Program-made: the position numbers and the translations under genes
Notes under the pieces: generated by a model
Told to the model about the DNA's origin: nothing
Database searches by the model: none
What the model saw: the letters and a program-made list of their open reading frames with translations, nothing else
Shown: one piece after another, positions 824 to 48,129 of the stretch
Position numbering within the stretch: the stretch's first letter is position 1
How the letters are laid out: each line of letters starts with the position of its first letter
NCBI GenBank assembly: GCA_964476125.1
Contig: CAYZAE010000012.1
Span: 996 to 64,995 of the forward strand
Direction: 5' to 3'
DNA from: an uncultured Verrucomicrobiota bacterium
GTDB lineage: Bacteria > Verrucomicrobiota > Verrucomicrobiia > Limisphaerales > CAIMTB01
DNA: 64,000 nt

Positions 824-3800
824 ATGCCCGTTCGCATCTACGACATCGCCCGAAAACTCGGCGTGGAGAGCAAGGTAGTGCTCTCCAAGGCCAAGGAGTT
901 GGGCATCTCTCACGCCAAGGTGGCTTCCAGCACGCTCGACAAGATTACTGCCGAGTATCTGGAGGTGAATCTGGCGCCGGCGCGGGCCGCCTCCGACGTC
1001 CCCGCCCCCGAAACGCCAGCCACCCACGCCCATCCGCCTGTCGAGGATGCCAGCCACGAGGCTCACGAGACGTCTCATCCCGAACCCGCCCCGGCCCCAA
1101 CGCCTGGCCCGGTCGCGACGACGGCATCCCACTCCCACGTCGAGCCCACCCCGCCGGCCGCACCCGCCCCGGTTGCATCCGCCGCATCCGCTCCGGCGCA
1201 CTCGGCACCCTCCGCCCCGGTCAGGACCGCCCCGCCCGTAGTCGCCCCGGCCCATGCCGAGGCTCCGGTTCCGCCACCCACCCCCGCTCCAACGCCAGCC
1301 CCGGCTCCGGCTCCAGTTCCGGCCGCGCCCTCCGTCAGCCCGGTTTCCTCCGTTACGACGCCAGTCGCCACCGCTCCAGCCGGCGCGCCTGTTCCCGTTC
1401 CCGCTGTCGAGAGTCCCGTGGTGGCCTCACCCGCACCTTCCGTCGCGTCGGCGGCGCCCTCCGCGGCTCCCGCTCCTGTGGCCATGGAACCCGTCCGACC
1501 CCACGCTGAAGCCGCCCCCGCGGCTCCGGCATCGGCTCCCGCCGCCCCGGTCGTGGAGGCTTCCGCCCCGGCGGCAGGCGTGCCGCTCGCCCGTCCCGCG
1601 ACCGACGCTCCCTCCGTTCCCAAGGCGGCAGGGTCGTCCGCACCCGCACCCGCACCCACCCCCGTTCCCGCGGCTGCCCCGGCACCCGGGCCTGCGTCCG
1701 TGCCAGCACCTGCACCTTCACCCGCGCCCACCCCGGCTTCGAGTCCGACCCCGACCTCTGGAACGGCGGTCCCACCGGCGGCGCCTGCCGCTCCTTCCAC
1801 ACCCGCGGTTCCACCCCGTTCTCCCGGGCTTGGCGAACTGGTGGGGCGCATCGAACTTCCGTTCCGCAACCGGCCCGGTGGCCGGCCGCCAACGCCTCCG
1901 ACACCTCCCCCGCCGCCGCCGCAACAGAGGCGGCCCGAGCCGCCTCCCGGACGTCGGCCCGAGATGCCGCCGCGGGGTCGTCCGCCCGGCTTCACGGCCG
2001 CTGGCGGCCGTCCTTATGGTCAGGGCGGTGGTGCCGGACGTCCGCCGATAGGGCAGGGCCCGGGTCGCCCCGGCATGGCGGGTGGGCCGCCTGGACGCAT
2101 GGGGCCCGGTCAGCCACCCGCGCCTGCGGGTCGCCCGGGTGGGCCTCCCGGCAAACAGCCGGCGCTCCCGGATTACGTGGCGCCCGCCGATGGGAAGGTG
2201 ATCTCGCTCAAGCCGCCGATCATCGTACGCGATCTCGCGGAGAAGATGGGCATCAAGGCGTACCGGCTTCTCCATGACCTCATGGAGCTCGGCGTTTTCG
2301 CGAACCTGAACCAGTCGGTCGACGAGAAGGTCGCCCAGTTCATCGCGGCCCGGCACGGGTTCCGTTTCGAAGTGGAACGGCGTGAAAAGGGCGCCGGCCA
2401 GGTTCATGCGCCGGTCAAGAAGGTCGAACTGGACGTCGATGACGCGCCGGAGCAGCTGAAACTGCGTCCGCCCGTGATCACGATCATGGGTCACGTCGAC
2501 CATGGCAAAACGACGCTGCTGGATGTCATCCGCAAGTCGGACGTTGCCGCCCGGGAAGCCGGCGGGATCACCCAGCACATCGGGGCCTACACCATCCAGG
2601 TGCCGCATCCGGAAAAACCGGCCGAGCTGCAGCAGCTCACGTTCCTGGATACTCCCGGTCACGCTGCGTTCAGCGCCATGCGCGCCCGCGGTGCCAATGT
2701 CACCGACATCGTCATTCTGGTCGTTGCGGCCAGCGAAGGCGTGATGCCGCAGACGATCGAGGCGCTCAACCACGCCAAGGCCGCCAAGGTTCCGATCATG
2801 GTCGCGGTCAACAAGTGCGACCTGCCTGCGGCGAATCCCCTGCGCACCCGGCAGATGCTTCAGGAGCACGGGCTGGTTCCCGAGGAATGGGGCGGTGAAA
2901 CGATCTTCGTCGATGTTTCCGCCAGCACCAAGGCGGGGATCGACCAGCTGCTCGCCTTGCTGGTGCTCCAGGCCGACGTCATGGAGCTCAAGGCGAACCC
3001 CACCCGGCGCGCCAAGGGCAACGTGATCGAGTCCGGTCTCGAACCCGGCGGCCCGACCGCCACGGTCCTGGTCCGGAAAGGCACACTCCGCCTGGGCGAC
3101 GTGGTCATTTGCGGACAGTATTACGGCCGCACCCGCGCCCTCATCAGCGAGGAAGGTCACCGTCTCAAGGAGGCCGGACCCTCGGTTGCCGTGAAGGTTC
3201 TCGGTCTCAACGGCGTTCCCGAGGCCGGTCTCGAATTCAGTGTGGTCGAGAACGAAAAGACCGCCCGGAATCTCGCCGAGGAACGCGAACTCGAAGCCAA
3301 GGCCGCCGGCTGGGAACGCGGTCCCCGCGTCACGCTCGACAACTTCTTCAAGGTCATCGAGCAGCAGTCCGCCAAGAGCCTCAAGCTCATCGTCAAGGGC
3401 GACACCCAGGGCTCCGTCGAGGCCATCGTCGAAGCACTCAAGAAAATCGAGAGCACCAAGGTCAGCCTCGAAATCGTCCACAGCGCCGTCGGCACCATCA
3501 CCGAGAGCGACGTGCTGCTCGCCGCCTCCGCCAAGGGCATCATCGTCGGCTTCCACACCCGCCTCGACAACGGGGTGCCCGCCGCCGCCAAACGCGAGGG
3601 CGTTCAGATCAAGCAATACGAGATCATCTACGAACTCATCGACGAAGTCCGGGCCGCCATGGCCGGACTGCTCGATCCCGAGCTCAAGGAAATCACCCTC
3701 GGTGCTGCCGAGGTCCGGCAGATCTTCGATCTCTCCAAGGGCGGCCGTGTGGCCGGTTGCATGGTCCTCAACGGCCGCATCATCAAGGGCAAGGCCCGCG

Positions 3801-8735: not shown

Positions 8736-10190
8736 ATGAGCTGTCTTTTCCTTTCCCCCCCCAGTTTCGATGGCTTCGACGGCGGAGCAGGGGCGCGATA
8801 CCAGGCGCGTCGCGAGGTCACCAGCTTCTGGTACCCCACCTGGCTGGCCCAACCGGCCGCCCTCGTGCCCGGCTCCCGCCTGCTCGATTGCCCGCCCCAT
8901 GATGTCGGCAAGGAGGAATGTCTCCGCATCGCCCGGGATCACGAGCACGTCATCATCCATACCTCCACGCCTTCGCTCAGGAACGACTGCAAGGTGGCTG
9001 AGGCCATCAAGGCGCAGCGGCCCGAGACGGTCATCGGATTCGTCGGTGCCCACGCCGCGGTGCTCCCGACCGAAACCCTGAAGGCCTCCCCCTCCATCGA
9101 TTGGGTGGGCCGCAAGGAGTTTGATTTTACCTGCAAGGAGGTCGCCGAAGGTCGTCCCCTGGCCGGTGTTGCCGGACTGTCCTACCGGGATAAGGAAGGC
9201 AAGATCCGCCACAATCCCGAGCGCGAACTGATCCACAACATGGACGAACTGCCGTGGGTGGCGGACGTCTACAAGCGCGATCTGACCATCGAGAAGTACT
9301 TCATCGGGTACCTCCAGCATCCCTACGTCAGCCTCTACACAGGACGCGGCTGCCCGGCCCAGTGCACCTTCTGTCTCTGGCCGCAGACCATCGGCGGACA
9401 CAAATACCGGGTTCGCTCGCCGCAAAATGTCGCCGATGAAATGGCGTACATGAAGAAGACCTTCCCGCAGGTGCGTGAGTTTTTCTTCGACGACGACACC
9501 TTCACCGCCAACCTGCCCCGGGCTCGCGAGATCGCGAAGAAGCTTGCCCCGTTGGGGGTGGACTGGAGCTGCAACAGTCGCGCCAACCTCGACTACGACA
9601 CCATCAAGTCGTTCAAGGATTCCGGGCTCCGGCTGTTCCTGGTCGGTTACGAGTCGGGCAACGACGACATTCTCCAGCGCATCAAGAAGGGCGTCACCAT
9701 GGACGAGATGCGCCGCTTCACCCGTTCCTGCCACCAGGCGGGCGTTGTGGTTCACGGCACGTTCATCCTGGGGTTGCCGGTCGAAACACCCGCCTCCATC
9801 GAGAACACCATCAACTTCGCCAAGGAGTTGGACGTCTTCAGTCTCCAGGTCAGCCTCGCGGCGCCCTACCCGGGCACGGAACTCTACGAGATGGCCCGCC
9901 AGAACGGGTGGTTCGCCAAGCGCGACAAGGCAGACATCATCCATACCGATGGCTTCCAGGACTCCTCGCTCGAGTATCCCGGCCTGAACAAGGAGGAGAT
10001 CTTCGAGGCGGTGGACCGCTTCTACCGGTCCTATTACCTGCGTCCGAAGCCGATCCTGCGCATCATCAAGACGATGCTCGAAGACAAGGATGTGTTCGTC
10101 CGCCGCTGCCGCGAGGGTTACGAGTTCTTCAAAAGCCTGCGTCAGCGGAAGGAAACCCTGGCCGCTGCCCGGGCCGCCGCCGCAGCCTGA
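8736..10190 (+). CDS. hpnJ: Hopanoid-associated B12-binding radical SAM protein HpnJ
   Basis: 484 aa. The N-terminus LFLSPPSFDGFDGGAGARYQARREVTSFWYPTWLAQPAALVPGS is the characteristic HpnJ signature. Radical-SAM motif GRGCPAQCTFC. Adjacent to hpnH. Confidence 0.9.
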   Translation: MSCLFLSPPSFDGFDGGAGARYQARREVTSFWYPTWLAQPAALVPGSRLLDCPPHDVGKEECLRIARDHEHVIIHTSTPSLRNDCKVAEAIKAQRPETVIGFVGAHAAVLPTETLKASPSIDWVGRKEFDFTCKEVAEGRPLAGVAGLSYRDKEGKIRHNPERELIHNMDELPWVADVYKRDLTIEKYFIGYLQHPYVSLYTGRGCPAQCTFCLWPQTIGGHKYRVRSPQNVADEMAYMKKTFPQVREFFFDDDTFTANLPRAREIAKKLAPLGVDWSCNSRANLDYDTIKSFKDSGLRLFLVGYESGNDDILQRIKKGVTMDEMRRFTRSCHQAGVVVHGTFILGLPVETPASIENTINFAKELDVFSLQVSLAAPYPGTELYEMARQNGWFAKRDKADIIHTDGFQDSSLEYPGLNKEEIFEAVDRFYRSYYLRPKPILRIIKTMLEDKDVFVRRCREGYEFFKSLRQRKETLAAARAAAAA

Positions 10191-10258
10191 ATCGGATCCC
10201 TCCGACAAGCCCCCGGAGTCCCTAGGGCACCGGGGCTACCGATTCCCGCCCGCCCCGC

Positions 10259-11344
10259 TCAGGGCGGAGCCAGCTTCAGGATGGGTCGGACTCGCGTGAA
10301 TCCTGTGCGTTGGGCCCCGGCTGCCGGCGTCTGCTGAAACCGCACTTCCACTCCAGCGACACCGTCGTAAACCGGCTTGGGCGTGCCGCTGAGAAAGATC
10401 TGCGCCGGATTCGCAGTCCATTGGGAAAGGTCCGGGGAGGTTTCCACCACGAAATCCACCGTGCCACCCGCAAATCGCCGGAAGGTCGTCGCCAGTGCGG
10501 GTCTTCCGGAAGGGCGCGCGATCGCCGCCTGCAACCGGGGAAAGACCGTGGCGTCGTTCGGTTTGGTGCTGAAGGCGAACTCGACCCCGTTGTTGAAACC
10601 GTCGCCGTCTTCGTCCCCGGTCGGCTGTGGGGCCAGGGAATTAAACCAGAACTGTTCCCAGACGTCGGGCAGTCCGTCGCGATCCGTGTCCGCGGGCACC
10701 GCGGCAGCCAGGAGCATCTTCTTCAGGTTGTCGTAGTGCGTTTTTACCCCGAGATCGTGGGAAGTCAGGTTGTCCTTCCCCAACGGCCGGTTGAAGGCGT
10801 CGAGAATCAGAACATCCCGGTAAGCGATCCCCCAACTGGCCCAGACCCGGTCCGTCGACGTGTCCTGCAACCAAGGCAGGACATTCATGGTCAGCCCGAT
10901 GTAAAGATTCAGGCCGGACGACTCGAGGCGATTGAGTCCGATGATCTCGATGTTGAGACCGGGATTGGTCGCAGCGAGGTCCTTGAACAGGGTCTGGAGG
11001 TGACCAAACTGGCCACGACAATACCCTCACCCCGCGTCCCCGAAGTAATAGGCCGAAATCTGCAGCCGATAATCCCGCGGCGAGACCATCCGCGTGTAAC
11101 GGGAGGAGTTCGAATTGGCATCCCGCAGCTGAAAATCCGGCATCGGCTGAGGAACCGCGGTCTGGGCCTGCAACGCCGGGGTGAGCCAAACGCCCAGCCC
11201 CGCCAACGCCAGCATCACCGCCAGCCATGTCCGCCCCGGCCGGCTCACCCGGAGCCCCTCCGCGGCCTGGCACATCACCCCCCGGGGCGACCGGTCGGCT
11301 CCCGGGGAGATCGTTTCCCAATGGAACTGCGCTGCCATGAACAC
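10259..11344 (-). CDS. Secreted thioredoxin-fold (TlpA/redoxin-like) protein with in-frame TGA at 11027..11029 (candidate selenocysteine, U-G-Y-C motif) and a C-terminal TSP3-like repeat module
   Basis: ORFs 11027..11344 and 10259..10888 share one frame (start offset 456 nt). They are separated by one TGA plus 46 sense codons. Read-through gives PDFQLRD...ISAYYFGDAG-[TGA]-GYCRGQFGHLQTLFKDL...LPWLQD...RDVLILDAFNRPL. A signal-peptide-like LAVMLALAGLGVWLTPALQA is present. ORF start 11344 is GTG; ATG alternatives are at 11338 and 11275. Confidence 0.65.
11000..11016 (-). promoter_or_regulatory. Candidate bacterial SECIS hairpin downstream of the in-frame UGA
   Basis: RNA 5'-GUGGCC-AGUUU-GGUCAC-3' forms a 6-bp stem (one G-U) with a 5-nt loop containing G. 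It starts 10 nt after the UGA at 11027..11029. Folded by eye only. Confidence 0.35.
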
Positions 11345-11350
11345 GTAAAT

Positions 11351-12658
11351 CTAGACCGATGTGCCGTCAGGAATCACCCCATTTTTGGGCACCACCAGAA
11401 CGCCGTCCCGGATGTAGTACAGGGGATGGTCCAGGTTCTCCGGTTTGCCCAGGGGCGAAAGCTTGCAGTTGGCCCCGATGCGCGCGTTCTTGTCGATGAT
11501 CGCATTCTCGATGTGCGTGCCCGGCCCGATCCCCACCGGCGGCCGGCCGGCCTCGGTGTTCTGGGCGATGGATTCCGCCGACTCGTAGTAGTCGTTACCC
11601 ATGACCACCACGCGCCGGAGGCTCGCGTTTTCACCGATCAAACTGCGCACCCCGATCACCGCATGGGAAATCTTGGCGCGGGTGATGATGCAGCCGTCCG
11701 ACACCACCGCGTGATCAATCTCGGCGCCGTTGATCTTCGAGCCCGGGAGGAAGCGCGGACGCGTGAAAATCGGGCGGACCATGTCGAAGAAATTGAACTT
11801 CGGCAGTTCCGAGGTGATGTCGAGGTTCGCCTCGAAGAACGACGCGATGGTCCCGATGTCCTCCCAGTACCCTTGGAACACGTAGGAATAGACCCGCTGC
11901 TTGCCGATGGCGCTCGGAATGATGTGTTTGCCGAAATCCGTGAAATCGTTGTCCAAAAGGCGCAGCAGGACCTCCCGGTTGAACACGTAGATGCCCATCG
12001 ACGCCAGGAACTGCTCGCCTTCGCCCTCGATGCCGTGCTGACGAACCATCTCCGGGGTCAGCCGGAGCGTGTCCTGGACCGCCGGATCCTTCGGCTTCTC
12101 GACGAATCGCACGATCCGCCCCTCGGAATCGATCTGCATGATGCCCAGCGAACTCGCCACGCTGCGCGGGACCGGAATGGTCGCAATGGTGACATCAGCC
12201 TTCCGCGCCTCGTGCTCGACGAGCAGCTCCCGGAAATCCATCCGGTACAGCTGGTCGCCACTCAGGATCAGGGCGTAATCAAAACTGTGGTTCAGGAAGT
12301 GGAGGATGTTCTTCCGCACCGCATCCGCCGTGCCCTGGTACCACGAGGAACTCGAAAAGGTCTGTTCCGCGGCCAGAATACCAACGAAACCGCCCGAGAA
12401 ATTATCGAAGGTGTACGACTGGCTGAGATGCCGGTGCAACGAGGCGGAATTGAACTGCGTCAGCAGATAGATCCGCTTCAGGCCGGAGTTGATGCAGTTC
12501 GACAGCGGGATGTCCACGAGCCGGTACTTGCCCGCCAGGGGCACCGCCGGCTTCGCCCGTTCCCGGGTGAGCGGGAAGAGCCGGGTTCCCTGCCCGCCTC
12601 CCATGATGATGGAAAGCGTGCGTTGCGAGGTGTCCGGGATGATTTTGGAGGAAGGCAT
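11351..12658 (-). CDS. glgC: Glucose-1-phosphate adenylyltransferase
   Basis: 435 aa. GGGQGTRLFPLTRERAKPAVPLAGKYRLVDIPLSNCINSG is the canonical GlgC N-terminus, and the C-terminal left-handed beta-helix region is present. Confidence 0.95.
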   Translation of the reverse strand: MPSSKIIPDTSQRTLSIIMGGGQGTRLFPLTRERAKPAVPLAGKYRLVDIPLSNCINSGLKRIYLLTQFNSASLHRHLSQSYTFDNFSGGFVGILAAEQTFSSSSWYQGTADAVRKNILHFLNHSFDYALILSGDQLYRMDFRELLVEHEARKADVTIATIPVPRSVASSLGIMQIDSEGRIVRFVEKPKDPAVQDTLRLTPEMVRQHGIEGEGEQFLASMGIYVFNREVLLRLLDNDFTDFGKHIIPSAIGKQRVYSYVFQGYWEDIGTIASFFEANLDITSELPKFNFFDMVRPIFTRPRFLPGSKINGAEIDHAVVSDGCIITRAKISHAVIGVRSLIGENASLRRVVVMGNDYYESAESIAQNTEAGRPPVGIGPGTHIENAIIDKNARIGANCKLSPLGKPENLDHPLYYIRDGVLVVPKNGVIPDGTSV

Positions 12659-14756: not shown

Positions 14757-14831
<75 letters not shown>

Positions 14832-15178
14832 TTTTCCCGTTCCTCCCTCACGCCTGCCTCCTGCCATAATTCCCTCTTTCGTGCCCTGAAAGTCTGGTTC
14901 ACTCCCGCTGGGGTCGGCCGAGAGAAGCCCTTCTCTGGTACGGGTGGTCGGATCCAACTGAGTCAAAACATCCGCCGTTCAGGGAGACCAGCGCAGGGTG
15001 GGAGTCGTGCTGGCTGGCAAATTTCAACAATCCGGAGGGGATCCGATTCGAACTGCTACTCCGGTTCGATGGGGAAAGCCGCCGAAAAGGTTGCCATCTT
15101 CCTCCTTAGCGACCCTGATTCCGATTTCTCAACGGTGTGGCGAAAAACGGAATCTGCGTCCATAAACAAGGAAATCGC

Positions 15179-16573
15179 ATGATAACGAGCCTGCACCTCA
15201 AGAACTTCAAGGGGTGGAAGGATACCGGCCAGTTGAGTTTGGCACCGATCACTGTTTTCTTCGGTACCAACAGCTCAGGCAAATCGAGCCTTGGCCAGTT
15301 CCTCATGATGTTGAAGCAGACGGCGAATTCGACGGACCGTAATCGGGTGTTGCATCCAGGCGACGATTCCACGGCCGTGGACTTGGGAACCACCGAAGAC
15401 CTGCTCTATCGCCACGACACCACCCAGGAACTGAGCTTCACCTTGACGTGGGCGCAGCAGCCAGCCCTTGAGATCAGGGATGTACTGAGCCAAGAGACAT
15501 TTCGTGGCGAGACGATCAAGTTCGGTGCGACGATCGGATTCGAGACTGGCAAGGGTACGCAAGCGCGCTGCAGGCAGTTCGGCTATTTCTTTGGTGGCGA
15601 CGGAGATCCAGAGTTCGCAGCGGAGCTCCTTCACGATTCTGGCTCGGCTGGAGATTATCGGCTTGAAACGAGGGGTTTTAGGGCGGTCCGAAAGAATATG
15701 AGGGCGTGGCCATTGCCGCATCCGATGTGGTTCTTCGGTTTCCCGGACGAATTGAGCCGCTATTATCAGAACGCGGCGACTCTGAGCGAGCTCACCTTCG
15801 CGCTGCAGACCCTGCTCAAGGGTGTTTCTTATCTTGGGCCGCTCCGTGAAGAGCCCAAACGCCACTATGCCTGGGCCGGCGACACACCCGAGGATGTCGG
15901 GTCGCGGGGGGAGCGGTGGGTGAGCGCGTTCCTGGCCGCCTCAGACAGGAAGATCAGTTTGGGGTACAAGCAACGAGCGAAGTCGTTTGAAGCGTTGATC
16001 GCCGCGGAGCTACAACGTCTTGAGTTGATCCACTCCTTCAGCGTAACGCCTTTGGCAAAAGGGGTCCGGGAGTATCGGGTGCGGGTAAAGGTGGGGGAAG
16101 GGGCTTCCGAGGTCTCGATCCCGGATGTGGGTTTCGGTGTGTCGCAGGTCCTGCCAGTGCTCGTTCAATGCTTCTACGCGCCGCGGGGCAGCACGGTTAT
16201 AGTCGAGCAGCCCGAGCTTCACCTGCATCCGGCGGTGCAGCAGAATCTCGCCGATCTGTTCATTGACGCCTCGAAGTCGTACGAGGGAGGGACCGGCCGT
16301 AAAGTCCAGTTTCTCATCGAGAGCCACTCAGAGCATTTCCTTCGGCGGCTTCAGCGACGAATCGCCGAGCAACAGATCACCCGGGATGAGGTGGCCATCT
16401 ATTTCTGCGGCTCCAATCCCGGCGGTAGCACAATCGAGCCTCTCGAAGTCGACCTTTACGGGAACATCCAGAATTGGCCGCGTAACTTCTTCGGTGACCA
16501 GATTACGGATATGGCAGAGATGCAACGGGCGGGTATCCGCCGGCGACGCGAGGCTCAACCAGCCGGAACTTGA
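15179..16573 (+). CDS. ABC/AAA_21-type ATPase with DUF3696-like C-terminus (OLD/AriA/PtuA-like sensor ATPase class)
   Basis: ATG at 15179 (MITSLHLKNFKGW) inside GTG-started ORF 15137..16573. Walker A FFGTNSSGKSS, Walker B VIVEQPELHLHP, H-loop ESHSEHFLRRLQ, C-terminal NWPRNFFG. First gene of a coupled three-gene unit. Confidence 0.85.
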   Translation: MITSLHLKNFKGWKDTGQLSLAPITVFFGTNSSGKSSLGQFLMMLKQTANSTDRNRVLHPGDDSTAVDLGTTEDLLYRHDTTQELSFTLTWAQQPALEIRDVLSQETFRGETIKFGATIGFETGKGTQARCRQFGYFFGGDGDPEFAAELLHDSGSAGDYRLETRGFRAVRKNMRAWPLPHPMWFFGFPDELSRYYQNAATLSELTFALQTLLKGVSYLGPLREEPKRHYAWAGDTPEDVGSRGERWVSAFLAASDRKISLGYKQRAKSFEALIAAELQRLELIHSFSVTPLAKGVREYRVRVKVGEGASEVSIPDVGFGVSQVLPVLVQCFYAPRGSTVIVEQPELHLHPAVQQNLADLFIDASKSYEGGTGRKVQFLIESHSEHFLRRLQRRIAEQQITRDEVAIYFCGSNPGGSTIEPLEVDLYGNIQNWPRNFFGDQITDMAEMQRAGIRRRREAQPAGT

Positions 16574-16577
16574 GCGG

Positions 16578-17105
16578 ATGAAGCCCTTACCGCGTCGGTG
16601 CCTGGTGGACACGAACGTTGCCATTGTAGCCAACGGCCACAGTGAGCAGGCGAACGACGCCTTGGTGGGGGAGTGCATCGACGCGCTGCTGCAACTGACG
16701 AGGAAGGGTGGTCTGGTGGTCGATGAGCGGGGGGAGATTTTCAACGAGTACCTGCAGAACCTCAGCTTGAAGGGTCAGCCGGGAACAGGGGATTTGTTTA
16801 TGAAGTGGGTTCATGATCACCAGTGGAACCCGGATCTCTGTGAACGTCGGGCCATCACGCCGCGCGAAGACGAGCGGATGTACGAGGAATTTCCAGCGAC
16901 CCCCGACTTGAGGGCTTTCGATCGCGGCGACCGGAAGTTTGTTGCAGTGGCGAATGCGATGGAACCCAAGCCCCCGATTCTTGAGGCCGTAGACTTCAAG
17001 TGGTGGGGATGGAAGAAGGCGCTGGCTGCCGAGGGAATCGAGGTCGTTTTCCTCGATGAGAGAGCGGCCCGAACGGGATACTTCAAGCACATGCGCGATG
17101 TCTGA
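16578..17105 (+). CDS. PIN-like domain protein (putative ribonuclease)
   Basis: Start MKPLPRRCLVDTNVAIVANG lies 4 nt after the ATPase stop. Acidic PIN-like positions: CLVDTNV, VVDERGEIFNEY, FDRGDRKFVAVA. The assignment is from motif resemblance only. Confidence 0.6.
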   Translation: MKPLPRRCLVDTNVAIVANGHSEQANDALVGECIDALLQLTRKGGLVVDERGEIFNEYLQNLSLKGQPGTGDLFMKWVHDHQWNPDLCERRAITPREDERMYEEFPATPDLRAFDRGDRKFVAVANAMEPKPPILEAVDFKWWGWKKALAAEGIEVVFLDERAARTGYFKHMRDV

Positions 17106-17829
17106 GGTATTTCACAAATTCCCATCAACCCCGCACTTGGTCTGGTTGGGGCGAGCCGGACTGCGAGAGGATAAGTTGATGACTGCAGAAGAGGCGGAGG
17201 CGTTCCTCTCGGAACCGGCTGTGCTTGAGGAGAAAGTGGACGGAGCCAATCTCGGGATTTCCTTCGATGCCCAGGGGCGCATGCGATTCCAGAACCGTGG
17301 ACAATGGTTGACCGGAAAACTTTCGGGTCAGTGGGAAACGTTGCGAGTCTGGGCGGCTCAGCACGAGGAGTCCCTGCGAAAGTTCCTGCCGGCAAGACAC
17401 ATTCTGTTTGGTGAGTGGTGTCACGCGTTGCATTCCATCCGTTACGATCAGTTGCCGGACTGGTTTCTTGGCTTCGACGTCTTCGATTGCCGTGCTCGCA
17501 GATTCTGGAGTGTCGCGAGGCGAAACTCACTGCTCGATGCCGTCCATGTTGCAGCGGTTCCGGCAGTGGCGACCGGTCGCTTCCGAATACCCGACATTCT
17601 CAGGCTGCTGGACGGCCTCTCCTCCTTCGCTTCGTCCCCCCGGGAGGGGCTCTATCTTCGGCGGGACAAAGGTGATTGGCTGGAAGGCCGCGCCAAAGTG
17701 GTGTGCGCAGAGTTCACGCAAGCCATTGGTGAGCACTGGTCGAGGAGGCAATTCCTGGCAAACGCAACCGTTGCACAACCGGTTATTTGTGTGGGTGGAC
17801 ACCGCAGCGTCCCGCGGTTGTACCGGTAG
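17098..17829 (+). CDS. ATP-dependent RNA ligase family protein (covalent nucleotidyltransferase superfamily)
   Basis: Start MSEVFHKFPSTPHL overlaps the upstream stop by 8 nt. Motif I EEKVDGANLG (KxDG lysine), motif III LFGEWC, motif IV FLGFDVFD, motif V EGLYLRR...GRAKVV. Confidence 0.8.
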   Translation: MSEVFHKFPSTPHLVWLGRAGLREDKLMTAEEAEAFLSEPAVLEEKVDGANLGISFDAQGRMRFQNRGQWLTGKLSGQWETLRVWAAQHEESLRKFLPARHILFGEWCHALHSIRYDQLPDWFLGFDVFDCRARRFWSVARRNSLLDAVHVAAVPAVATGRFRIPDILRLLDGLSSFASSPREGLYLRRDKGDWLEGRAKVVCAEFTQAIGEHWSRRQFLANATVAQPVICVGGHRSVPRLYR

Positions 17830-18178
17830 AGCCCGTGAGCACCGATCTCTGATGGATCTCACCTCCCGGGGAGCGGAACGCGGCACCAATCATCATTCGT
17901 TGTCACCACCCGGCATGATGCCTTTAGAGTACTGCGACATGTCGCAGCTTTTGTTTAGCCGTTCAGTCTTGGCCTGATGGCGGAGCGCCCACTGACGGCG
18001 GTTCCCCGCCCTGGGTCGAATCCAGAGCGGCGACATGTTTCCGCATTCCATTCCCTCTCAACTGCCTTCCTTTCCCACAGCGGGTCTCGTTTGCCGACAA
18101 GCCGGAGATACCCCCGTCGGATTTCCCGGCAAAGATTCCTCTGGAACGCTGATTTCGTTTCGTGGGATGGGTTGGTGT

Positions 18179-19789
18179 ATGAAAATTTCGGAGACGGCCA
18201 CGGATTTCTCACTGCCTTCCGCGACCCGCGCTTTTCCCAGGAGATTTCCCATCCCACCCGGCCCCCTGAGGCTCGCCTTCACGGCGTTGCTGCTGATGCT
18301 TTCGGCGGCGACGCTGCCGGCCCAGAGCCCGGGGTTTCTCTACGAAGGCCGGTTGAGTACGGCGCGTGGTCCGGCGACGGGCTTGCATGACCTTGTTTTC
18401 CGCCTGCTCGATGCGCCGACCGGCGGGAGCCAGATCGGCCGGGTGGAGACGCGGCACCGGTTGGATCTGGTGGATGGGGTGTTTTCCACACGGCTGAACT
18501 TTGGCGGCGCGGCGTTCGACGGAACACCGCGATGGCTGGAAATCCGCGTGCGCGCGTCGGACAGCGGCTTGGATCATGTGACGTTGCAGCCGCGGCAGGA
18601 GATATCGCCGGTGCCGATGGCATTGCAGGCGTCGGGATTAAAGGGGGACCGCGGCGACGTCGGACCGCCGGGACCGGCCGGTGAGCCGGGGGCGCAGGGT
18701 GTGCAGGGAGTGCAGGGGCCTCAAGGTCCCGCCGGGCCGAAGGGAGATCGCGGAGATCGCGGAGAACCGGGCCCGGTGGGAGCGGCTGGGGTCAAGGGCG
18801 ATCCCGGAGCACCGGGCGTTGCGGGTGCGCCGGGGAGTCCTGGCCTGAAGGGCGATCGGGGCGACACAGGGCCCGCGGGTCCTCCCGGTCCGGCCGGGCC
18901 TCCGGGACCGGCAGGTCCGGAAGGGCCGCAAGGACTGCAGGGGATTCAAGGGATCCAGGGGCCTCCGGGGGCCCAGGGGTTGCAAGGACCTCCGGGGGAG
19001 GGTTTGCCAGGAAAACTGGCATCCTCGCCCAACGGCAGGGATCTCTGGCTGGGGATGGTGGATGACTTCGGCAATCCGATGTTCGTGGTGGGGGCGGACC
19101 AGATTACGCGGGCCCGGAATCTGGATGCCCAGGCGGTGGATTGTTTGAGCCTGTCCACCAAGTTCGGCGGCGGCATTACTTCGGATGGGCCCCTTTTGAG
19201 CCGAGGGACAATCACCGCGGATTTGGGAGTGGTCGCGAAGGGCCCGGTGAATTCCGATATGAGCATGAATGCGCCGACGGGTTTCTTTGGGAACCTGAGC
19301 GGCAACACCCTGTATGTGCGCGACCGCCAGAATCCGAATCGCAGTGGGTTCTGCACTCTCTCCGGATCCCTCTGGACGTTCGAGCAGTTTGCGGGATCAG
19401 GCCTCACTTCGGTCCGGTTCAACGGGATGAATCTGGAGGCGTTGGCGTTCAACACGCTTTCGGATCGGAACGCGAAGCAGGGGATCGAGCCGGCGGACGC
19501 GGGGGAGATTCTGGACAAGGTGGTGAACCTGCCGGTTTCCGAATGGTCGTATTCGAGCCAACCGGAGGTGCGGCACGTGGGTCCGATGGCGCAGGATTTC
19601 AAGGCTGCCTTCGGACTGGGGGATGACGAGAAACGGATCTCTCTCGGCGATGCGCAGGGAGTGGCGCTGGCAGCCATCCAGGGCTTGCACCAGCGGATGC
19701 AGGAGGAGATCGCGCGCCGGGACGCGGTGATCCGGAAGCTGGAGGAACGGCTGGCGGCTCTCGAACAGCGCACGACGTCCAAGCCATGA
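18179..19789 (+). CDS. Secreted collagen-like triple-helix repeat protein with C-terminal S74-type intramolecular chaperone (tail-fibre-like) domain
   Basis: Start MKISE... with signal peptide [18 protein letters not shown]. About 40 uninterrupted G-X-Y triplets ([19 protein letters not shown]...GPPGEG). C-terminus [12 protein letters not shown]...VSEWSY...[16 protein letters not shown]...[10 protein letters not shown] plus a coiled coil. Confidence 0.85.
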
Positions 19790-21461: not shown

Positions 21462-21738
21462 AGGGGGGGATCGGCGTGCCGGGTTCGGATGCGGTATTTG
21501 GCTTTGCGAAACATCCAACAGATGGAAGTCACCATCATGGGGTGATGCGGGATTCGGAGCAACTGGTCGATGCGTTCCTGGTCAATGCCATGCCCTCCAA
21601 TCGCGCATTCGGGCCGAATGATCCGCGCGTGAATGCCGAATGTCGTGACTTGATCCCATGGGTGGGTGGTCCGGGAGATGATTCGCCGTGCCACGCGGGG
21701 ACGGGATGTGATTCAGTGGACGCAATCTCGAAGGCCCA

Positions 21739-23184
21739 ATGAAATTCCCATTTCCGCACCTCATCGGTTGGATGGTTCTGACGCTGCTGCTCGCGGGGTG
21801 CAAACCTTCCGGCGAAGATCCAGGCGCACAGGCGGCGCAGGAGCCCGTATCGGTGCCGGTGCCTGTGCCAGTGCCTGTGCCCGATCCCGAGCCGGCTCAG
21901 GAAGCGATCGAGTTGGTGACCGAGATTCCAGAGGAGGCCCCTTCCGTTGGTAATTCCAGTCCGGCTCCTGTGGCTCCCGGGGCACCGGGGACATTGGCTG
22001 CGGGCCCGAGGCCGGCCGCCACCGGCCTCCCGGAATACGAGCTGCGACTGGACCGTTCCGCGTGGCGGCGGTTGGGGCAGAATCCGTATGCGAACGACAC
22101 CTGTCCGGCGGTGTTTCTCGGGGGTGGGGAGACCTTCGAGGGGGCGCGGGTCCGGTACCGCGGGCAATGGGCACGATCGTGGCCCAAGAAGCCTTTGAAG
22201 ATTTTTCTGCCGAAGGAGAAGCCGTTTCAGGGATACGGGGCCTTGAACCTCAATTCCGCGTGGCACGATCCGGCGCTGCTGCGCGAGCCCCTGGCGTTCC
22301 ATGTCTATGCGGCGTGCGGCGTGCCCGCGCCCCGGGCCCGCATGGTGCGGCTGAAGATCAACGGCCAGTTTGAAGGCCTGTATGTCGACGTCGAGCAACC
22401 GAAACGACAGTTTCTTGAGCGCACAGGGTTGAAGGGGGCGGCGGTGTACAAGGCCTTGGGACGATCCAACCGATCGGACGAACGGGATCTCGGCGGAGCC
22501 GGTGTGTATGCCTCCGAGTACGAAAAGGAGACCCGGGAAACGGAGGGTTTCGGTGAGCTTCAAACCTTCTGCCACGCCCTGGCGACGGCGTCCGACGCGA
22601 AGGATTTTTTCGAGAAGCACGTCGATATCGATCGGTTGATCAATTATCTCGCGGCGGGGGTGCTGGTGCAGAACTGGGATTGCTTCAACAAGAACCATCA
22701 CCTGATCCATGACCGGGCCGGATCCGGGAAGTGGTTTCCCACGCCGTGGGACGTCGATCGCACGTTTGGCGACCACTGGTCGTGGTCGTTTGAAGTGGTG
22801 GATCTGCCTGTTCTGCTGGGCACCCGGGAGCAGCCTGGCGTCACCGGGTGGAACCGGCTCGCCGATCGGTTTCTCCGGGAACCTGAGTACCGGACCCGAT
22901 TTCTGAACCGCCTCGAAAGCCTGATTCAGACCGAATTCACGCCGGAACGGCTCTATCCGGTGATCGACCGGTGGGCGGTTGAGATCGCGGCGGATGTGGT
23001 CACCGACCGCGCAAAGTGGCGCGGCGCGGCGGCGAACTTCAACGGGTCCATCGTCCAGGTGAAGCGATTCATCGAGCAACGACGAACGCATGTCCGGCAG
23101 GAGATTGCCAGCTTGCGTCGGGGAGTGGCCCCCTCAGCCCAGCGTCCGGCAAAGCCGATCGCGCCACGTCGTCCCGCGGGTTGA
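21739..23184 (+). CDS. CotH kinase family lipoprotein
   Basis: 481 aa. Lipobox LLLAGC. CotH-type motifs LNLNSAWHDPALLREPLAFHVY, RLKINGQFEGLYVDVEQ, NWDCFNKNHHLIHD, TPWDVDRTFG. Confidence 0.85.
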   Translation: MKFPFPHLIGWMVLTLLLAGCKPSGEDPGAQAAQEPVSVPVPVPVPVPDPEPAQEAIELVTEIPEEAPSVGNSSPAPVAPGAPGTLAAGPRPAATGLPEYELRLDRSAWRRLGQNPYANDTCPAVFLGGGETFEGARVRYRGQWARSWPKKPLKIFLPKEKPFQGYGALNLNSAWHDPALLREPLAFHVYAACGVPAPRARMVRLKINGQFEGLYVDVEQPKRQFLERTGLKGAAVYKALGRSNRSDERDLGGAGVYASEYEKETRETEGFGELQTFCHALATASDAKDFFEKHVDIDRLINYLAAGVLVQNWDCFNKNHHLIHDRAGSGKWFPTPWDVDRTFGDHWSWSFEVVDLPVLLGTREQPGVTGWNRLADRFLREPEYRTRFLNRLESLIQTEFTPERLYPVIDRWAVEIAADVVTDRAKWRGAAANFNGSIVQVKRFIEQRRTHVRQEIASLRRGVAPSAQRPAKPIAPRRPAG

Positions 23185-26815: not shown

Positions 26816-29800
26816 CTACTTCACCGAGAGCGGCACGCTGCCGGAGTGGCTGTTGAATTCGGGGGCGTAGAGGCACTGCACGGAGGCCACGCCGGTGGTG
26901 TAGGCGCCGCGGTGTTGCACGCGGACGGGGTATTCGAAGACGTAGGTTCCCTTCGCGAGGTACCCGATGAAGAAGTGGCTGGCGGTGTCCCGCGTGCTCT
27001 CGTAGTAGCCGAGCCCGTCCTGGAAACGGTAGCCGGACAGCACGTTCACCGGTTCGGTGCCGCTGCCGCGTTGGTCCTTGAGATGCACGTACTCCAGATC
27101 GCGATCCACCCGGAGTTCGATCCGGATGACCAGTTCGTCCCCGACTTTCACCGCGCCCTTCACGGGCACGAGCCGTTGTCCGGCCTTGGTGGATTCCCGG
27201 ACGAAGGCGGACTTGGTCAGCTTCAGCGGCGTGCCGGCGAACGGTTTTACGCGGTCGAGATCCTCGAAGTACTGCCAGTGAACGGAGCCCCAGGAGACGC
27301 CGGTGTCGGTCTTGCGGACCACGATGTCAGCCTGTTTGGAGGAGACCTCGGCGCCCGGGATGCGCACCTGGTAGAAGCCGGTGCCGGCCTCCACGGCGGG
27401 GCCGGGCGTTTGGGTGCGGGCGTCCGCGGAGAGGCGATCCGACTTGGGCGATGCCTTGCCCGGGGTGATGGATTTCCCGCCCAGTTCCACCTCCACCAGG
27501 GCGTCGCTGCCGAGCAGATTGCGGCCGCCGAGCAGCAGGGCGTAGACGGCGTCGGCGGTGGCCTTGGTCGATTTCCAGGCCTGGGTTTGCTTCTGCTTGA
27601 GCAGCCAGACCTGGCAATCGTCGACGGCCTGGGTGTCGTGGGTGATCTTGGACAGCGCCTCGATCATGAGCGCCTGCGTTTCGATGGGGGCGCGATGCCA
27701 GGACCAGGAGAACTCCTCATCGCGCCAGAACCGGCCCAGTTCCTCGTTCACCACGCTGTGTTCGAGCAGCGATTTGACGATCGTTTGGGGCAGGGAAGCA
27801 GCGCTGGCGGGGGCGCGGTTGCCGAGTTTGGCGATGGCCAGGGCGATGTGGGCCTGGGATTGGCGGCCGACCTTGAGCCAGTGTTGCCGGGCCTGACCGA
27901 TCCAGTAATCGAAGGCCCCGGCGTGGGGTTCGGCGACCGGGTTGTCCGTGAGGAACAGGGTGCGGGCGTAGAGATAGAGCGCGACCGTGGCGTCGAGGTT
28001 CTCCTTCTCCAGCAGGTTCTTTTCCCGCAGCGCCTGGTAGCGGTCGTTCATCCAGCCGTCGAGTGCGTTGAGGGAGGCGAGGGCGGGTTGGACCTCGGCC
28101 TTCGCGCCGAGATCCCGGAGTCGGCCGAAGCCGGCGACGATGTAGAGCGTGATGTATTCGTCGCGGGGTCCGCCGGGGAACCAGGACCAGCCGCCTTCGG
28201 GCAGTTGCCGTTCGGCCAGTTTCTGGAGCGTCTGCTGGAGTTCGGACTCCAGTCGGGCGTCCTCGAAGAGCAGTCCGACCCGGCGGCGGGATTCGCTTTC
28301 CTGGTTGGCGTCGCGGAGCCAGGGCGTTTCCTCGAGCGCGATCGATTTGAGGTCAGCGTTCTTTTCCAGGGGACTATCGAGGGCGGGCGTGGCGCGCCAC
28401 TGATCGAGAATGCTGCGGATCTTGGGATCGCTGGTCGCGATGTGGCGGGCGAGCGCGTTGGCGTAGTAACGGTTGAAGATCTGTTCCGAGCACTCGTGCG
28501 GGTATTCCATCAGGTAGGGCAGGGCGAGCACGGCGTACCAGGCGGGCTGCGAAACCATCTGCACCGTGATGCCGTCGTGGCGCAGGGTGCGTGACCGCCC
28601 GGATTCCTTGAGGGCGGTGAAGGTGAACTTCCGGGTGGCGGGTCCGCGGATCGGGAGAGGCAGCGACTCGGTCAGGTGGATCCGGCGCGAGAGCACGGGC
28701 AGGTAACCTTCCTCGCCATCGCTGAGACGGTCGGTGGCGGCGACGGCCTTGAAGCGCAGGAAACCGCAGCCATCGGGAACGCGGAGACGCCAGGAGAGCG
28801 TCCGCGATTCCTTGGCCGGGATTTGAAAGCCCTGTTCCGGTTGCCGGTTCCCGAGGTCCTGGTCCGCGGACTGGCCGTCCTGGGCGAAGGTGAGATCGAG
28901 TCGGATGCGGCCGGTTTGCGGGTTGGTGGACTGGTTGGAGACCTTGACCGTGAATTCCAGTTCGTCGCCTTCGCGCAGGAAGCGGGGCGGGTTGGGTTGG
29001 ACCATGAGATCCTTGGCGGTGACCGTGGTTCCCGTCAGCAGCCCGGAGCGCAATTCGCGGTCATGCGCGAAGCCGAGAAAACGCCATTCGGTGAGCGCCT
29101 CCGGAAGCGTGAACGAAAGCCGGACCACGCCGTTGGAGTCGGAGGTCAGCTGGGGCAGGAAGAAGGCGGTCTCCTGGAGGTTCTGGCGGGCGGTGACTTT
29201 GGATGGATCGGGGCCGGGGCCTTCGGCGCCTTCGGCACCCGCGGCATTGGCGCGGCCTCGCCCCCCTGCGGCAGCGCCCTTGGCGCGAAGCATCGAGAGC
29301 TCGCCGTCGTTGTCGTAGTTCAGGGCCTTGGCGGAGGCCGGGGCGGCGGCCATGGCGGCAACCGGGCCGTCGGCGAGGGAAAAGGCAAACGAGTCGGCGA
29401 CCATTTCAGGTCCGCCGATACCCCGAAGGGTTCCTCGGCGGCTCATGAGTTGCGGGCTCATGGCGAAGCGCATCACTCCTCCACCGGTGAGTGCGTCGGG
29501 GAACCGGCGGTGGGAGACGCCCTGGGTTTCTGCCGGCGCGGGCCAGGTGCTGGACATCATAAGGAATCCGCGGAGCCCGTTGGCGAACAGGGAGTGGGCG
29601 GAAGACGAATAGATCGGCCAGAAGTGGAATCGTTCCGCCCAGCGATGGGGCCGGAACTGGTCGAGGGACGCGTCGTACAGCGTCGCGACGAGTTCGGCGG
29701 GAAGGACGGCTCCCTGGCCCTTGCGCGGTTTGATCACGGCCGTCCAGGTCTCCGGGGAACCGGGTTCCAGCCGGGACCGGAAGGTTTCCCAGGTCAGGTC

Positions 29801-33037: not shown

Positions 33038-33110
33038 GGCAAAGCCGGCTACCCCATTAGACCCTATTGGGAGGGATTTCTTAGCAAAATCTTGGGGTGC
33101 GGTTTTTTGG

Positions 33111-33224
33111 GGGGAGGGGAGTGGGGGAGGGGAGTGGAGGGAGAGATTAAGATTAAGAATAAGATTAAGAATAAGAGTGTTGGTCGAACGGTTCGGACCA
33201 CGCACGACCCACGACCCACGACCC
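33111..33224. repeat. Composite microsatellite block: G-rich 13-mer x2, AT-rich (ATTAAGA/ATAAGA)n tract, CACGACC x3
   Basis: GGGGAGGGGAGTG x2, then AGATTAAGATTAAGAATAAGATTAAGAATAAGAG, then CACGACCCACGACCCACGACCCAC. Located in the divergent A2M/EamA intergenic region. Confidence 0.8.
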
Positions 33225-48101: not shown

Positions 48102-48129
48102 GTTCTTGTTTCCTTTCGTTAATTTTACG

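What the first reader, a model, noticed from the sequence alone, without database searches (positions are those of the whole stretch)
10259..11344. In-frame TGA at the first Cys of a thioredoxin-fold CxxC motif: candidate selenoprotein with a SECIS-like hairpin
Two minus-strand ORFs in the track share one frame. They are separated by one TGA (11027..11029) followed by 46 sense codons. Read-through yields a complete secreted TlpA/redoxin-like domain. The stop sits where the N-terminal redox Cys belongs: ...YYFGDAG-U-GYCRGQFGHL... The sequence before the TGA (PDFQLRD..., 'SAYYFGD') and after it (LPWLQD, VLILDAFNRP) fits the fold. Ten nt after the UGA, the RNA GUGGCC-AGUUU-GGUCAC can form a 6-bp hairpin with a G in the loop. 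That matches the distance and form expected for a bacterial SECIS. UxxC thioredoxin-fold selenoproteins are an established class. The fusion to a TSP3-repeat/beta-sandwich C-terminal module is unusual.
Basis: partly seen in the sequence, partly recalled or inferred. Interest (0 to 1): 0.75.

Follow-up and report, generated by a model that had tools for sequence, protein, structure and literature searches.

The report
Secreted redoxin selenoprotein gene, TUGYCR family
The in-frame TGA is almost certainly a real selenocysteine codon in a secreted thioredoxin-fold enzyme, but NCBI already curates this family as a (seleno)protein, so it is a correct call of a known kind rather than a discovery.

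Summary
One minus-strand frame (10259..11344) is interrupted by a single TGA (11027..11029), and a 6-7 bp hairpin starts 10 nt after it.

Reading the TGA as Cys/Sec gives a protein that matches NCBIfam NF053656, "TUGYCR motif thioredoxin fold (seleno)protein". The match is E 9e-53 and 178 bits against a cutoff of 100, over the full model.

The same column is TGA in 40 of 41 gene copies from 38 loci (Verrucomicrobiota, Myxococcota, proteobacterial MAGs, one Pirellulaceae MAG). It is also TGA in four further metagenome contigs of the same organism. True Cys forms exist (TGT/TGC, HA[TND]CxxC).

The hairpin shows compensatory changes, including at a synonymous Gly third position. It has decayed in 3 of 5 Cys forms and fits the published bacterial SECIS model. 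TGA ends ordinary genes in the window, so a genome-wide code change is excluded.

An AlphaFold model of a 45%-identical Cys homologue is a ResA/TlpA/DsbE-like fold, with the Sec/Cys at the N-terminus of helix 1.

The Verrucomicrobiota clade alone adds a TSP3-like plus Ig-like β-sandwich tail.

Not shown: selA, selB, selD or tRNA-Sec. None lies in the window, and the rest of the genome was out of reach.

Verdict: new member of a known kind, of modest interest.

The parts
10259..11344 (-). Whole read-through coding frame of the selenoprotein gene. Candidate starts are GTG 11344, ATG 11338, ATG 11275 and ATG 11215. The true stop is TGA at 10259..10261.
   Evidence: JGI and Logan gene callers split it into an 82/103-aa piece and a 209-aa piece at the TGA.
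11165..11275 (-). Probable Sec-type signal peptide (MCQAAEGLRVSRPGRTW-LAVMLALAGLGVWL-TPALQA|Q). Read from the sequence; no predictor was run.
   Evidence: Orthologues have equivalent hydrophobic leaders, and non-verrucomicrobial members have lipobox-like leaders (L..AC/GC).
10703..11143 (-). Thioredoxin-fold redoxin domain, NCBIfam NF053656 (redoxin_TUGYCR)
   Evidence: E 8.9e-53, 178.1 bits, cutoff 100, model positions 1-146 of 146. Fold.
11027..11029 (-). Selenocysteine codon UGA, the first residue of the U-G-Y-C redox motif
   Evidence: TGA at this column in 40 of 41 homologous copies and Cys in the rest. Same TGA in L001 and in four further metagenome contigs of the same organism.
11018..11020 (-). 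Resolving Cys codon (TGT) of the UxxC motif
   Evidence: Invariant column C50 in the 34-sequence alignment.
11000..11016 (-). SECIS hairpin inside the coding sequence. Stem 11016..11011 pairs with 11005..11000. Loop is 11010..11006 (AGUUU; alternatively a 7-bp stem with a GUU loop).
10550..10699 (-). TSP3-like Asp-rich (DxDxDG) calcium-binding-type repeats with two short helices. Specific to the Verrucomicrobiota clade.
   Evidence: Pfam TSP3_bac below threshold (15.7 bits against 25). Amuc_1099_fam partial hit. Invariant Asp columns. Model pLDDT 86-96.
10277..10537 (-). C-terminal seven-strand β-sandwich of generic Ig-like type
   Evidence: AlphaFold pLDDT 91.5. Foldseek gives only weak Ig-like matches, E >= 0.027.

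Best explanation
The region is one gene for an exported thioredoxin-fold selenoprotein of the TUGYCR redoxin family. The UGA at 11027..11029 is decoded as selenocysteine. The signal is a SECIS hairpin that lies 10 nt downstream, inside the coding sequence (11000..11016). In the standard bacterial mechanism it would recruit SelB carrying Sec-tRNA(Sec). The product has four parts: a signal peptide, a ResA/TlpA/Prx-like redoxin domain with a U-G-Y-C active site at the N-terminus of helix 1, an Asp-rich TSP3-like linker, and an Ig-like β-sandwich. Catalysis is inferred to run through a selenenylsulfide between U106 and C109. That bond would then be re-reduced by an extracytoplasmic thiol reductant. 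The enzyme would therefore act outside the cytoplasm as a selenol/thiol oxidoreductase, probably tethered by its C-terminal module. Shown here: the recoding signature, family membership, the fold and the domain layout. Inferred: Sec insertion itself, export, the substrate, and the tethering role of the tail.
For: Family: NF053656 at 178 bits against a cutoff of 100, full model length. TGA conservation: all 24 database homologues of the read-through are C-terminal fragments that begin after the TGA, which means gene callers split them at the same place. Translating orthologue DNA shows TGA in frame, with conserved peptide on both sides. In 38 loci, 40 of 41 copies have TGA and one has TGT. Five independent assemblies of the same organism all keep the TGA. 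Cys homologues: P0025, P0029, P0032, P0033, P0035, P0037 and P0038 have Cys at the column. The 'W' at this column in P0026 is a TGA mis-translated by the gene caller. SECIS: 96.6% of stem cells pair. There are 25 double-change cells against 7.0 +/- 1.9 in shuffles (0 of 500 reach it). Slid controls pair at 23-52%. One covarying column is the synonymous third position of a Gly codon, so protein-level selection cannot explain it. The hairpin is lost in 3 of 5 Cys forms that keep the SQFG peptide, through a switch of Ser codons from AGY to UCN. The published bSECIS criteria are met: loop 3-9 nt, G in the first two loop positions, 16-37 nt from UGA to loop, MFE <= -7.5 (PMC13188914; values). No code change: TGA ends infB, truB, hpnJ, galK and both DUF3604 genes within 2-21 residues of the HMM end. 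Fold: AlphaFold pLDDT 93.6 for Cys homologue P0025, with C63 directly before helix 64-81. Foldseek finds ResA, DsbE and thioredoxin-like proteins at E ~1e-9 with TM 0.8. A profile search of PDB sequences aligns UxxC with the CxxC of ResA.
Against: No selA, selB, selD or tRNA-Sec lies in the 64-kb window or in the flanks of 38 homologous loci. The rest of the genome could not be read, so the decoding machinery is assumed, not shown. The window protein has G, not the family's name-giving T, before U (AG-U-GYCR). Its own structure could not be predicted because the tool refuses U-to-C edited sequences, so the fold rests on a 45%-identical homologue. The hairpin alone is weak evidence (z = -1.59; 7.8% of TGA triplets have one). 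There is no biochemical evidence for any family member, and no paper in the searched library names the family.
Confidence: 0.9

Rival explanations
1. Nonsense pseudogene, or two independent small genes: the TGA is a real stop and the downstream ORF (ATG 10888) is separate or degraded.
For: Public gene callers annotate it this way. NCBI MAG records name the fragments 'hypothetical protein'.
Against: TGA sits at the identical column in 40 of 41 copies across at least four phylum-level groups. The 46 codons between the TGA and the first ATG are conserved in frame at 41-57% amino-acid identity, and no other stop appears in any orthologue. The downstream fragment alone would lack both the signal peptide and half of the fold.
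Confidence: 0.02
2. UGA is read as Trp, Gly or Cys by a genome-wide code change or by near-cognate read-through, not as Sec.
For: UGA-to-Trp reassignment is reported in some Verrucomicrobiota (abstract of PMC13462651). JGI/ENA callers printed W at this column for several homologues.
Against: TGA is the normal stop of many genes in this window, with HMM ends 2-21 residues before it. The column alternates only with Cys, never with a TGG Trp codon. A covarying hairpin tied to the TGA forms is not needed for a reassigned codon.
Confidence: 0.03
3. Functional rival, still a selenoprotein: the domain works as a peroxiredoxin-like peroxidase. Sec would be the peroxidatic residue and C109 the resolving residue, instead of a TlpA/ResA-type disulfide reductase.
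For: Sources label the Cys homologues 'AhpC/TSA family' or 'peroxiredoxin', and some have precomputed PF00578/PF08534 hits. The invariant R117-D118 (window peptide IAYRDVLILD) sits directly before a β-strand. From my own knowledge of these families, not a tool result, that is where Prx has its catalytic Arg (YRGLFIID) and where ResA/TlpA have the cis-Pro. A Prx (Bcp4) appears among the Foldseek hits (rank 41).
Against: The best structural matches are ResA, DsbE and thioredoxin-like reductases. The Prx PxxxTxxC spacing is absent: T directly precedes U in most members, and the window has G. For the window protein, Pfam AhpC-TSA scores 12.7 bits against a cutoff of 26.
Confidence: 0.35
4. Sequencing or assembly error created the TGA.
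For: None, beyond the general possibility.
Against: The same TGA appears in five independent assemblies of the same organism, which differ from the window at 0-7 positions over 994-1086 nt.
Confidence: 0.01

Closest known systems
NCBIfam NF053656.1 redoxin_TUGYCR, 'TUGYCR motif thioredoxin fold (seleno)protein'
   Same: Full-length HMM match well above the curated cutoff. Same U/C-x-Y-C-R motif, the same conserved blocks (PDF.L.D.N, VSPRDY, LPWLQDT, YRDV..LD, NLT) and the same in-frame TGA.
   Different: The window and 6 of the 9 other Verrucomicrobiota loci have G instead of T before U. This clade carries a ~145-residue C-terminal TSP3-like plus β-sandwich extension. Most other members end about 110 residues after U. 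The single Pirellulaceae member (L026) carries a different long C-terminal extension instead.
Extracytoplasmic TlpA/ResA/CcmG(DsbE)-type thiol-disulfide oxidoreductases
   Same: Exported. The fold matches (Foldseek E ~1e-9, TM about 0.8 normalised to the target). The redox motif sits at the N-terminus of helix 1 and aligns with the CxxC of ResA.
   Different: Sec replaces the first Cys. Sequence similarity is below significance (E 0.1-1). The position of the cis-Pro appears to be taken by an invariant Arg-Asp (inference). No link to cytochrome c or copper maturation genes is seen in the neighbourhood.
UxxC Prx-like/Trx-like/redoxin bacterial selenoprotein families from metagenome surveys (Zhang and Gladyshev; PMC2398784, PMC13188914)
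   Same: Thioredoxin-fold UxxC selenoproteins with Cys homologues and domain fusions are a long-established class.
   Different: I could not tell whether TUGYCR equals one of the listed families, such as 'Redoxin family protein PF08534 UxxC' or 'Prx-like 3'. The 2026 review table does not list NF053656, and 'TUGYCR' occurs in no searchable paper. Sec forms far outnumber Cys forms here (40:1 in genomes), whereas Cys forms dominate in most of the listed families.
Bacterial SECIS, with E. coli fdhF as the paradigm and the bSECIS consensus model
   Same: A hairpin lies immediately downstream of the UGA within the coding region. A GU lies in a small apical loop. The distance from UGA to the loop is 16-17 nt, and MFE is -7.8 kcal/mol. 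The 10-nt spacer is close to the 11-nt spacing of the minimal E. coli element (my own knowledge: Liu, Reches and Engelberg-Kulka 1998).
   Different: The stem is short (6-7 bp), with no conserved lower helix or bulged U. SelB binding has not been tested.

Membership tests
NCBIfam NF053656 redoxin_TUGYCR | HMM score at or above the curated cutoff over the whole domain | tested here: met
   178.1 bits against a cutoff of 100, E 8.9e-53, model positions 1-146 of 146.
NCBIfam NF053656 redoxin_TUGYCR | T-U-G-Y-C-R motif with Sec (TGA) or Cys at the U position | tested here: met
   The window has A-G-U-G-Y-C-R, so UGYCR is present, but T is replaced by G. The same is true of 6 of the 9 other Verrucomicrobiota loci.
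NCBIfam NF053656 redoxin_TUGYCR | Thioredoxin fold | tested here: met
   Shown for the 45%-identical Cys homologue P0025: pLDDT 93.6, Foldseek ResA/DsbE at E ~1e-9.
Bacterial selenoprotein gene | In-frame UGA aligned with Cys in homologues, with conservation on both sides | tested here: met
Bacterial selenoprotein gene | [quoted passage not shown] | tested here: met
   7-bp stem, GUU loop, 17 nt, -7.8 kcal/mol. Criteria from PMC13188914. Covariation.
Bacterial selenoprotein gene | selA, selB, selC (tRNA-Sec) and selD in the same genome | not testable with these tools
   None in the window or in the flanks of the loci. The window's genome was not among the GTDB representatives returned, and its contigs in public collections are at most 12.5 kb.
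Bacterial selenoprotein gene | Selenium physically present in the protein | not testable with these tools
   Needs 75Se labelling or mass spectrometry.
TlpA/ResA/CcmG-like thiol-disulfide oxidoreductase | Exported thioredoxin-like fold with CxxC at the N-terminus of helix 1 | tested here: met
   The signal peptide was read from the sequence.
TlpA/ResA/CcmG-like thiol-disulfide oxidoreductase | Conserved cis-Pro loop opposite the active site | tested here: inconclusive
   The strand that follows the cis-Pro in ResA is preceded here by an invariant R117-D118. The correspondence rests on my recollection of the ResA sequence, and no superposition was available.
Peroxiredoxin (Pfam PF00578 AhpC-TSA) | Pfam gathering score | tested here: not met
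   12.7 bits against a cutoff of 26 for the window protein. Some Cys homologues have precomputed PF00578/PF08534 hits.
Peroxiredoxin (Pfam PF00578 AhpC-TSA) | PxxxTxxC active-site spacing | tested here: not met
   T is adjacent to U in most members, and the window has G.

The most novel reading that the evidence does not exclude
The Verrucomicrobiota clade may be a cell-surface or extracellular selenoenzyme. It would be held outside the cell by a TSP3-like/Ig-like tail of the kind shared with a giant secreted protein of the same genome. Its active site would be a hybrid: the UxxC of a disulfide reductase combined with the catalytic-Arg position of a peroxiredoxin. In that reading it detoxifies peroxides or reduces disulfides in the organism's exterior, a role that would make selenium supply limiting for a surface function.
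Probability: 0.3. Interest if true: 0.45.

Novelty: new member of a known kind. Interest (0 to 1): 0.3.

Why it matters
There are three practical consequences. First, public gene calls split this gene, or print W at the Sec codon, in essentially every metagenome and MAG examined. That includes NCBI Verrucomicrobiales MAGs, where the pieces are 'hypothetical protein'. The window therefore adds a clean, well-supported example for correcting annotation of a whole clade. Second, the family is unusually committed to selenium: about 40 Sec forms to 1 Cys form in species-representative genomes. This implies a real catalytic need in an extracytoplasmic enzyme, and it marks its carriers as Sec-decoding organisms. 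Third, the SECIS lies inside helix 1 of the protein, so RNA pairing visibly constrains the amino-acid sequence (Ser/Gly/Ala at +5 is coupled to Tyr/His at +9). That makes it a tidy natural example of overlapping RNA and protein constraints. None of this changes what is known about selenoproteins in principle.

Tried and rejected
I used a Cys homologue returned by the protein search instead.
- Single-sequence phmmer against PDB gave only insignificant hemocyanin/tyrosinase matches, which I reject as chance.
- Rfam found nothing at the hairpin, either at gathering threshold or at E <= 10.
- I looked for Sec machinery in four ways, and none found any. ARAGORN on the window and 38 loci found no tRNA-Sec. 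NCBIfam scans of 28 large window ORFs gave only a sub-threshold selB hit, which is the IF-2 GTPase.
- A second same-frame TGA junction (41572..41574, + strand) turned out to be the boundary between a sigma-54 regulator and a LysR gene, not a selenoprotein.
- The LysR regulator's best hit is 'selenium metabolism-associated LysR'. It is below the cutoff (187.5 against 250) and has no selenium genes beside it, so I do not use it as evidence.
- The promoter/terminator scan was uninformative.
- Literature: 'TUGYCR' appears in no searchable paper, and NF053656 is absent from the 2026 review table.
- I ran no further search on SelB or SelD. The top-120 listing could not be aimed at this lineage.

Full report
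**1. The observation**

Reading 10100..11600 on the minus strand and translating 10259..11344 gives 362 codons in a single frame, with one internal stop.
- The stop is TGA at 11027..11029.
- Upstream lies a 105-codon ORF, and 46 sense codons follow the TGA before the ATG at 10888.
- The local peptide is LQISAYYFGDAG*GYCRGQFGHLQ.
- Ten nucleotides after the UGA, GUGGCC/AGUUU/GGUCAC (11016..11000) forms a hairpin. Its free energy is -7.4 kcal/mol with a 6-bp stem and -7.8 with 7 bp and a GUU loop.

On its own the hairpin is not remarkable. The segment folds at z = -1.59 against shuffles. A generic bSECIS-like hairpin follows 7.8% of the 1541 TGA triplets in this GC-rich window, although the exact geometry follows only 0.26%.

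**2. What the protein is**

With Cys in place of the stop, Pfam gives only sub-threshold hits: TSP3_bac at 15.7 bits and AhpC-TSA at 12.7 bits. NCBIfam is decisive. NF053656.1 redoxin_TUGYCR, "TUGYCR motif thioredoxin fold (seleno)protein", matches at E 8.9e-53. The score is 178.1 bits against a curated cutoff of 100, covering model positions 1-146 of 146. NCBI's curators have therefore already recognised the family as containing selenoproteins.

**3. Homologues**

A database search with the read-through protein returned 24 hits. All were 183-247-residue fragments covering only the part after the TGA, apart from one 535-residue protein (P0024) that matches only part of the query. Gene callers everywhere break the gene at the same place.

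Fetching the DNA showed the upstream piece in frame, separated by TGA, with conserved peptide on both sides. This held for a near-identical contig (L001), a Verrucomicrobiales MAG (L002) and a 393-kb JGI contig (L003). An example is FYFGDAG*SYCRGQFGHLQ.

A scan of one genome per GTDB species found 35 more loci.
- They come from Verrucomicrobiota, Myxococcota, assorted proteobacterial MAGs and one Pirellulaceae MAG.
- Across all 38 loci there are 41 copies of the domain. Forty have TGA at the column and one (L030) has TGT in a CPLC motif.
- Four more JGI metagenome contigs of the window's own organism carry the same TGA, with 0-2 mismatches over 994 nt.

A profile search then found 250 database proteins.
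- About a dozen are full length.
- Seven of these are true Cys forms (HA[TN]CxYC and similar: P0025, P0029, P0032, P0033, P0035, P0037, P0038).
- Six show W at the column. For the one checked (P0026), the W is a TGA that the gene caller translated as Trp.
- The remaining listed hits are mostly ~97-residue post-TGA fragments.

The Cys/Sec alternation at one column, with conservation on both sides, is the classical selenoprotein signature. It rules out a nonsense pseudogene.

**4. The SECIS**

In every TGA copy the same hairpin lies 10 nt after the UGA. In a 39-sequence ungapped alignment the six stem pairs are standard pairs in 96.6% of cells.
- Three pairs show double changes: A-U/G-C 25:13, G-C/C-G/G-U/A-U 24:8:6:1, and U-A with A-U and C-G variants.
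- There are 25 double-change cells against 7.0 +/- 1.9 in column shuffles (0 of 500 reach it).
- The covariation score is 0.355 against 0.142.
- Sliding the 3' arm by 1-3 columns drops pairing to 23-52%.
- RNAalifold independently predicts the same helix.

One covarying column (36) is the third, synonymous position of the Gly codon, so the coupling cannot be a protein-level effect. As a by-product, residue +5 (Ser, Gly or Ala) is coupled to residue +9 (Tyr or His) through base pairing.

The Cys forms act as a control. Three of five have lost the hairpin (2-3 of 6 pairs) even where the SQFG peptide is kept, by using UCN instead of AGY Ser codons. Two keep it and are probably recent conversions.

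The element meets all four criteria of the published bacterial SECIS model (PMC13188914; values):
- a 4-16 bp stem;
- a 3-9 nt loop with G, usually followed by G or U, in the first two positions;
- 16-37 nt between the UGA and the loop (here 16-17);
- MFE <= -7.5 kcal/mol (here -7.8).

**5. Not a code change, not an error**

TGA is the ordinary stop in this window. It terminates infB, truB, hpnJ, galK and both DUF3604 genes within 2-21 residues of where their HMMs end. UGA-to-Trp reassignment, reported in some Verrucomicrobiota (PMC13462651), therefore does not apply. Five independent assemblies exclude a sequencing error.

**6. Fold and domain layout**

I therefore modelled the Cys homologue P0025, which is 45% identical over 96% of the domain, using a 45-sequence alignment.
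- pLDDT is 93.6 and pTM is 0.84.
- C63, which corresponds to U106, sits right after strand 53-59 and at the start of helix 64-81. This is the canonical thioredoxin-fold active-site position.
- Foldseek against the PDB gives 581 hits at E <= 0.001. ResA, DsbE-like and thioredoxin-like exported reductases lead at E ~1e-9, with TM about 0.8 per target. Sco and a Bcp peroxiredoxin come further down.
- A sequence profile against PDB chains gives only weak hits (E 0.1-1). They are the same kinds of proteins, and UxxC aligns with their CxxC.

The N-terminus reads as a signal peptide (RVSRPGRTW-LAVMLALAGLGVWL-TPALQA|Q). Many non-verrucomicrobial members have lipoprotein-like leaders. This is a sequence reading with no predictor run.

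The last 146 residues were modelled with 27 sequences at pLDDT 91.5. They form an Asp-rich TSP3-like segment followed by a seven-strand β-sandwich that has only generic Ig-like neighbours (E >= 0.027).
- This tail is present in all ten Verrucomicrobiota loci.
- It is absent from most other members, which end about 110 residues after U.
- The Pirellulaceae member carries a different long C-terminal extension instead.
- The TSP3-like part resembles the C-terminal end of the 1769-residue secreted protein at 34384..39690 in the same window (35% identity over 79 residues, E 1.7e-5).
- It also gives a partial hit to the Amuc_1099 pilus-like family.

The tail is therefore best read as a lineage-specific tethering or interaction module. 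That is an inference.

**7. Mechanism**

The shown steps are the recoding signals, the family, the fold, and the position of U and C. The remaining steps are inferred.
- SelB carrying Sec-tRNA(Sec) binds the hairpin and inserts Sec at UGA 106.
- The protein is exported.
- U106 attacks a substrate and forms a selenenylsulfide with C109.
- An extracytoplasmic reductant recycles that bond.

Which substrate is open. The top structural neighbours favour a TlpA/ResA-type disulfide reductase. Against that stand the invariant R117-D118 before the β-strand (IAYRDVLILD) and the source annotations of the Cys forms as AhpC/TSA. Both point to a peroxiredoxin-like site, because Prx has YRGLFIID with its catalytic Arg there, where ResA has a cis-Pro. 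That comparison rests on my own knowledge of those sequences, not on a tool result. The Prx PxxxTxxC spacing is not met. I put the disulfide-reductase reading at about 0.45, the peroxidase reading at about 0.35, and other roles at the remainder.

**8. Context**

The gene starts 6-12 nt after the stop of glgC on the same strand and converges on hpnJ/hpnH. glmS lies beyond glgC. The order glmS-glgC-selenoprotein recurs in L003, and hpnJ/hpnH lie downstream in L002. This looks like conserved gene order rather than a functional operon with a redox partner.

No Sec machinery is in the window or in the flanks of the loci. The genome could not be reached. It was not among the GTDB representatives returned, and the public contigs that carry it are at most 12.5 kb. 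This is the one untested refutation criterion.

**9. Comparison and novelty**

UxxC thioredoxin-fold and Prx-like selenoproteins, including fusions, have been catalogued since 2005-2008 (PMC1088965, PMC2398784). This particular family has a curated NCBIfam model. It is not named in any paper I could search, nor in the 2026 review table.

The window's gene is a new member of a known kind. Three features are mildly unusual: the clade-specific tail, the G-for-T motif variant, and the strong dominance of Sec over Cys forms. I give 0.3.

Noticed in passing
window 41575..42672 (+): LysR-type regulator whose best NCBIfam match is 'selenium metabolism-associated LysR' (NF040786). The score is 187.5 bits, below the cutoff of 250. 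It lies directly after a sigma-54 response regulator (40063..41571) in the same frame, separated by a TGA that is an ordinary stop. No selenium genes lie beside it.
   Followed up: partly
window 14757..17829: A stretch with low third-position GC lies right after tRNA-Lys(CTT). It holds an AAA_15/AAA_21/DUF3696 ATPase (15137..16573), an unknown ORF (16263..17105) and an RNA_ligase-family protein (17056..17829). It looks like an integrated defence or mobile island at a tRNA gene.
   Followed up: partly
window 26819..34699 (-) and 34384..39690 (+): Two giant ORFs of 2627 and 1769 residues with almost no family matches. The second has a choice-of-anchor X domain. It shares the TSP3-like C-terminal segment with the selenoprotein (35% identity over 79 residues).
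   Followed up: partly
window 44202..50175 (-): A cluster of a HupE/UreJ-like membrane protein, a PPIase (Rotamase_2) and two tandem DUF3604 paralogues, each about 790 bits to PF12228. The function is unknown.
   Followed up: no
L016 2627 and 3389; L017 2669 and 3508: Two TGA-containing TUGYCR genes lie in tandem within about 800 nt in two proteobacterial MAG loci, each with its own hairpin.
   Followed up: no
P0028 (JGI, 212 aa): A family member whose first domain has Ser at both the U and C positions (DATSAYSRDQFG), which would make it redox-inactive. It is followed by the start of a second domain that ends at ...YYFGAAT, exactly where the Sec codon would be.
   Followed up: no
P0026, P0027, P0030, P0031, P0034, P0036; L043 305..895: JGI/ENA gene calls print Trp (HATWGYC) at the Sec column. 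For P0026 the DNA shows TGA, so these are Sec forms mis-translated under a TGA=Trp table. NCBI MAG records instead annotate only the post-TGA fragment as 'hypothetical protein'.
   Followed up: partly
L026 (Pirellulaceae MAG) 2501..3004 and downstream: This planctomycete member has a different, ~180-residue C-terminal extension after the redoxin domain. It contains repeats that look dockerin-like (DVNNDSVISPVGDVL, DVNGDYLISPVGDVL), read from the sequence only. This suggests that different lineages attach different anchoring modules to the same selenoenzyme.
   Followed up: no
window 21712..23181 (+) and 17996..19786 (+): A CotH kinase-family protein (215 bits) and a protein with collagen-like Gly-rich repeats (hits to Scl/Lcl adhesins, below cutoff).
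   Followed up: no
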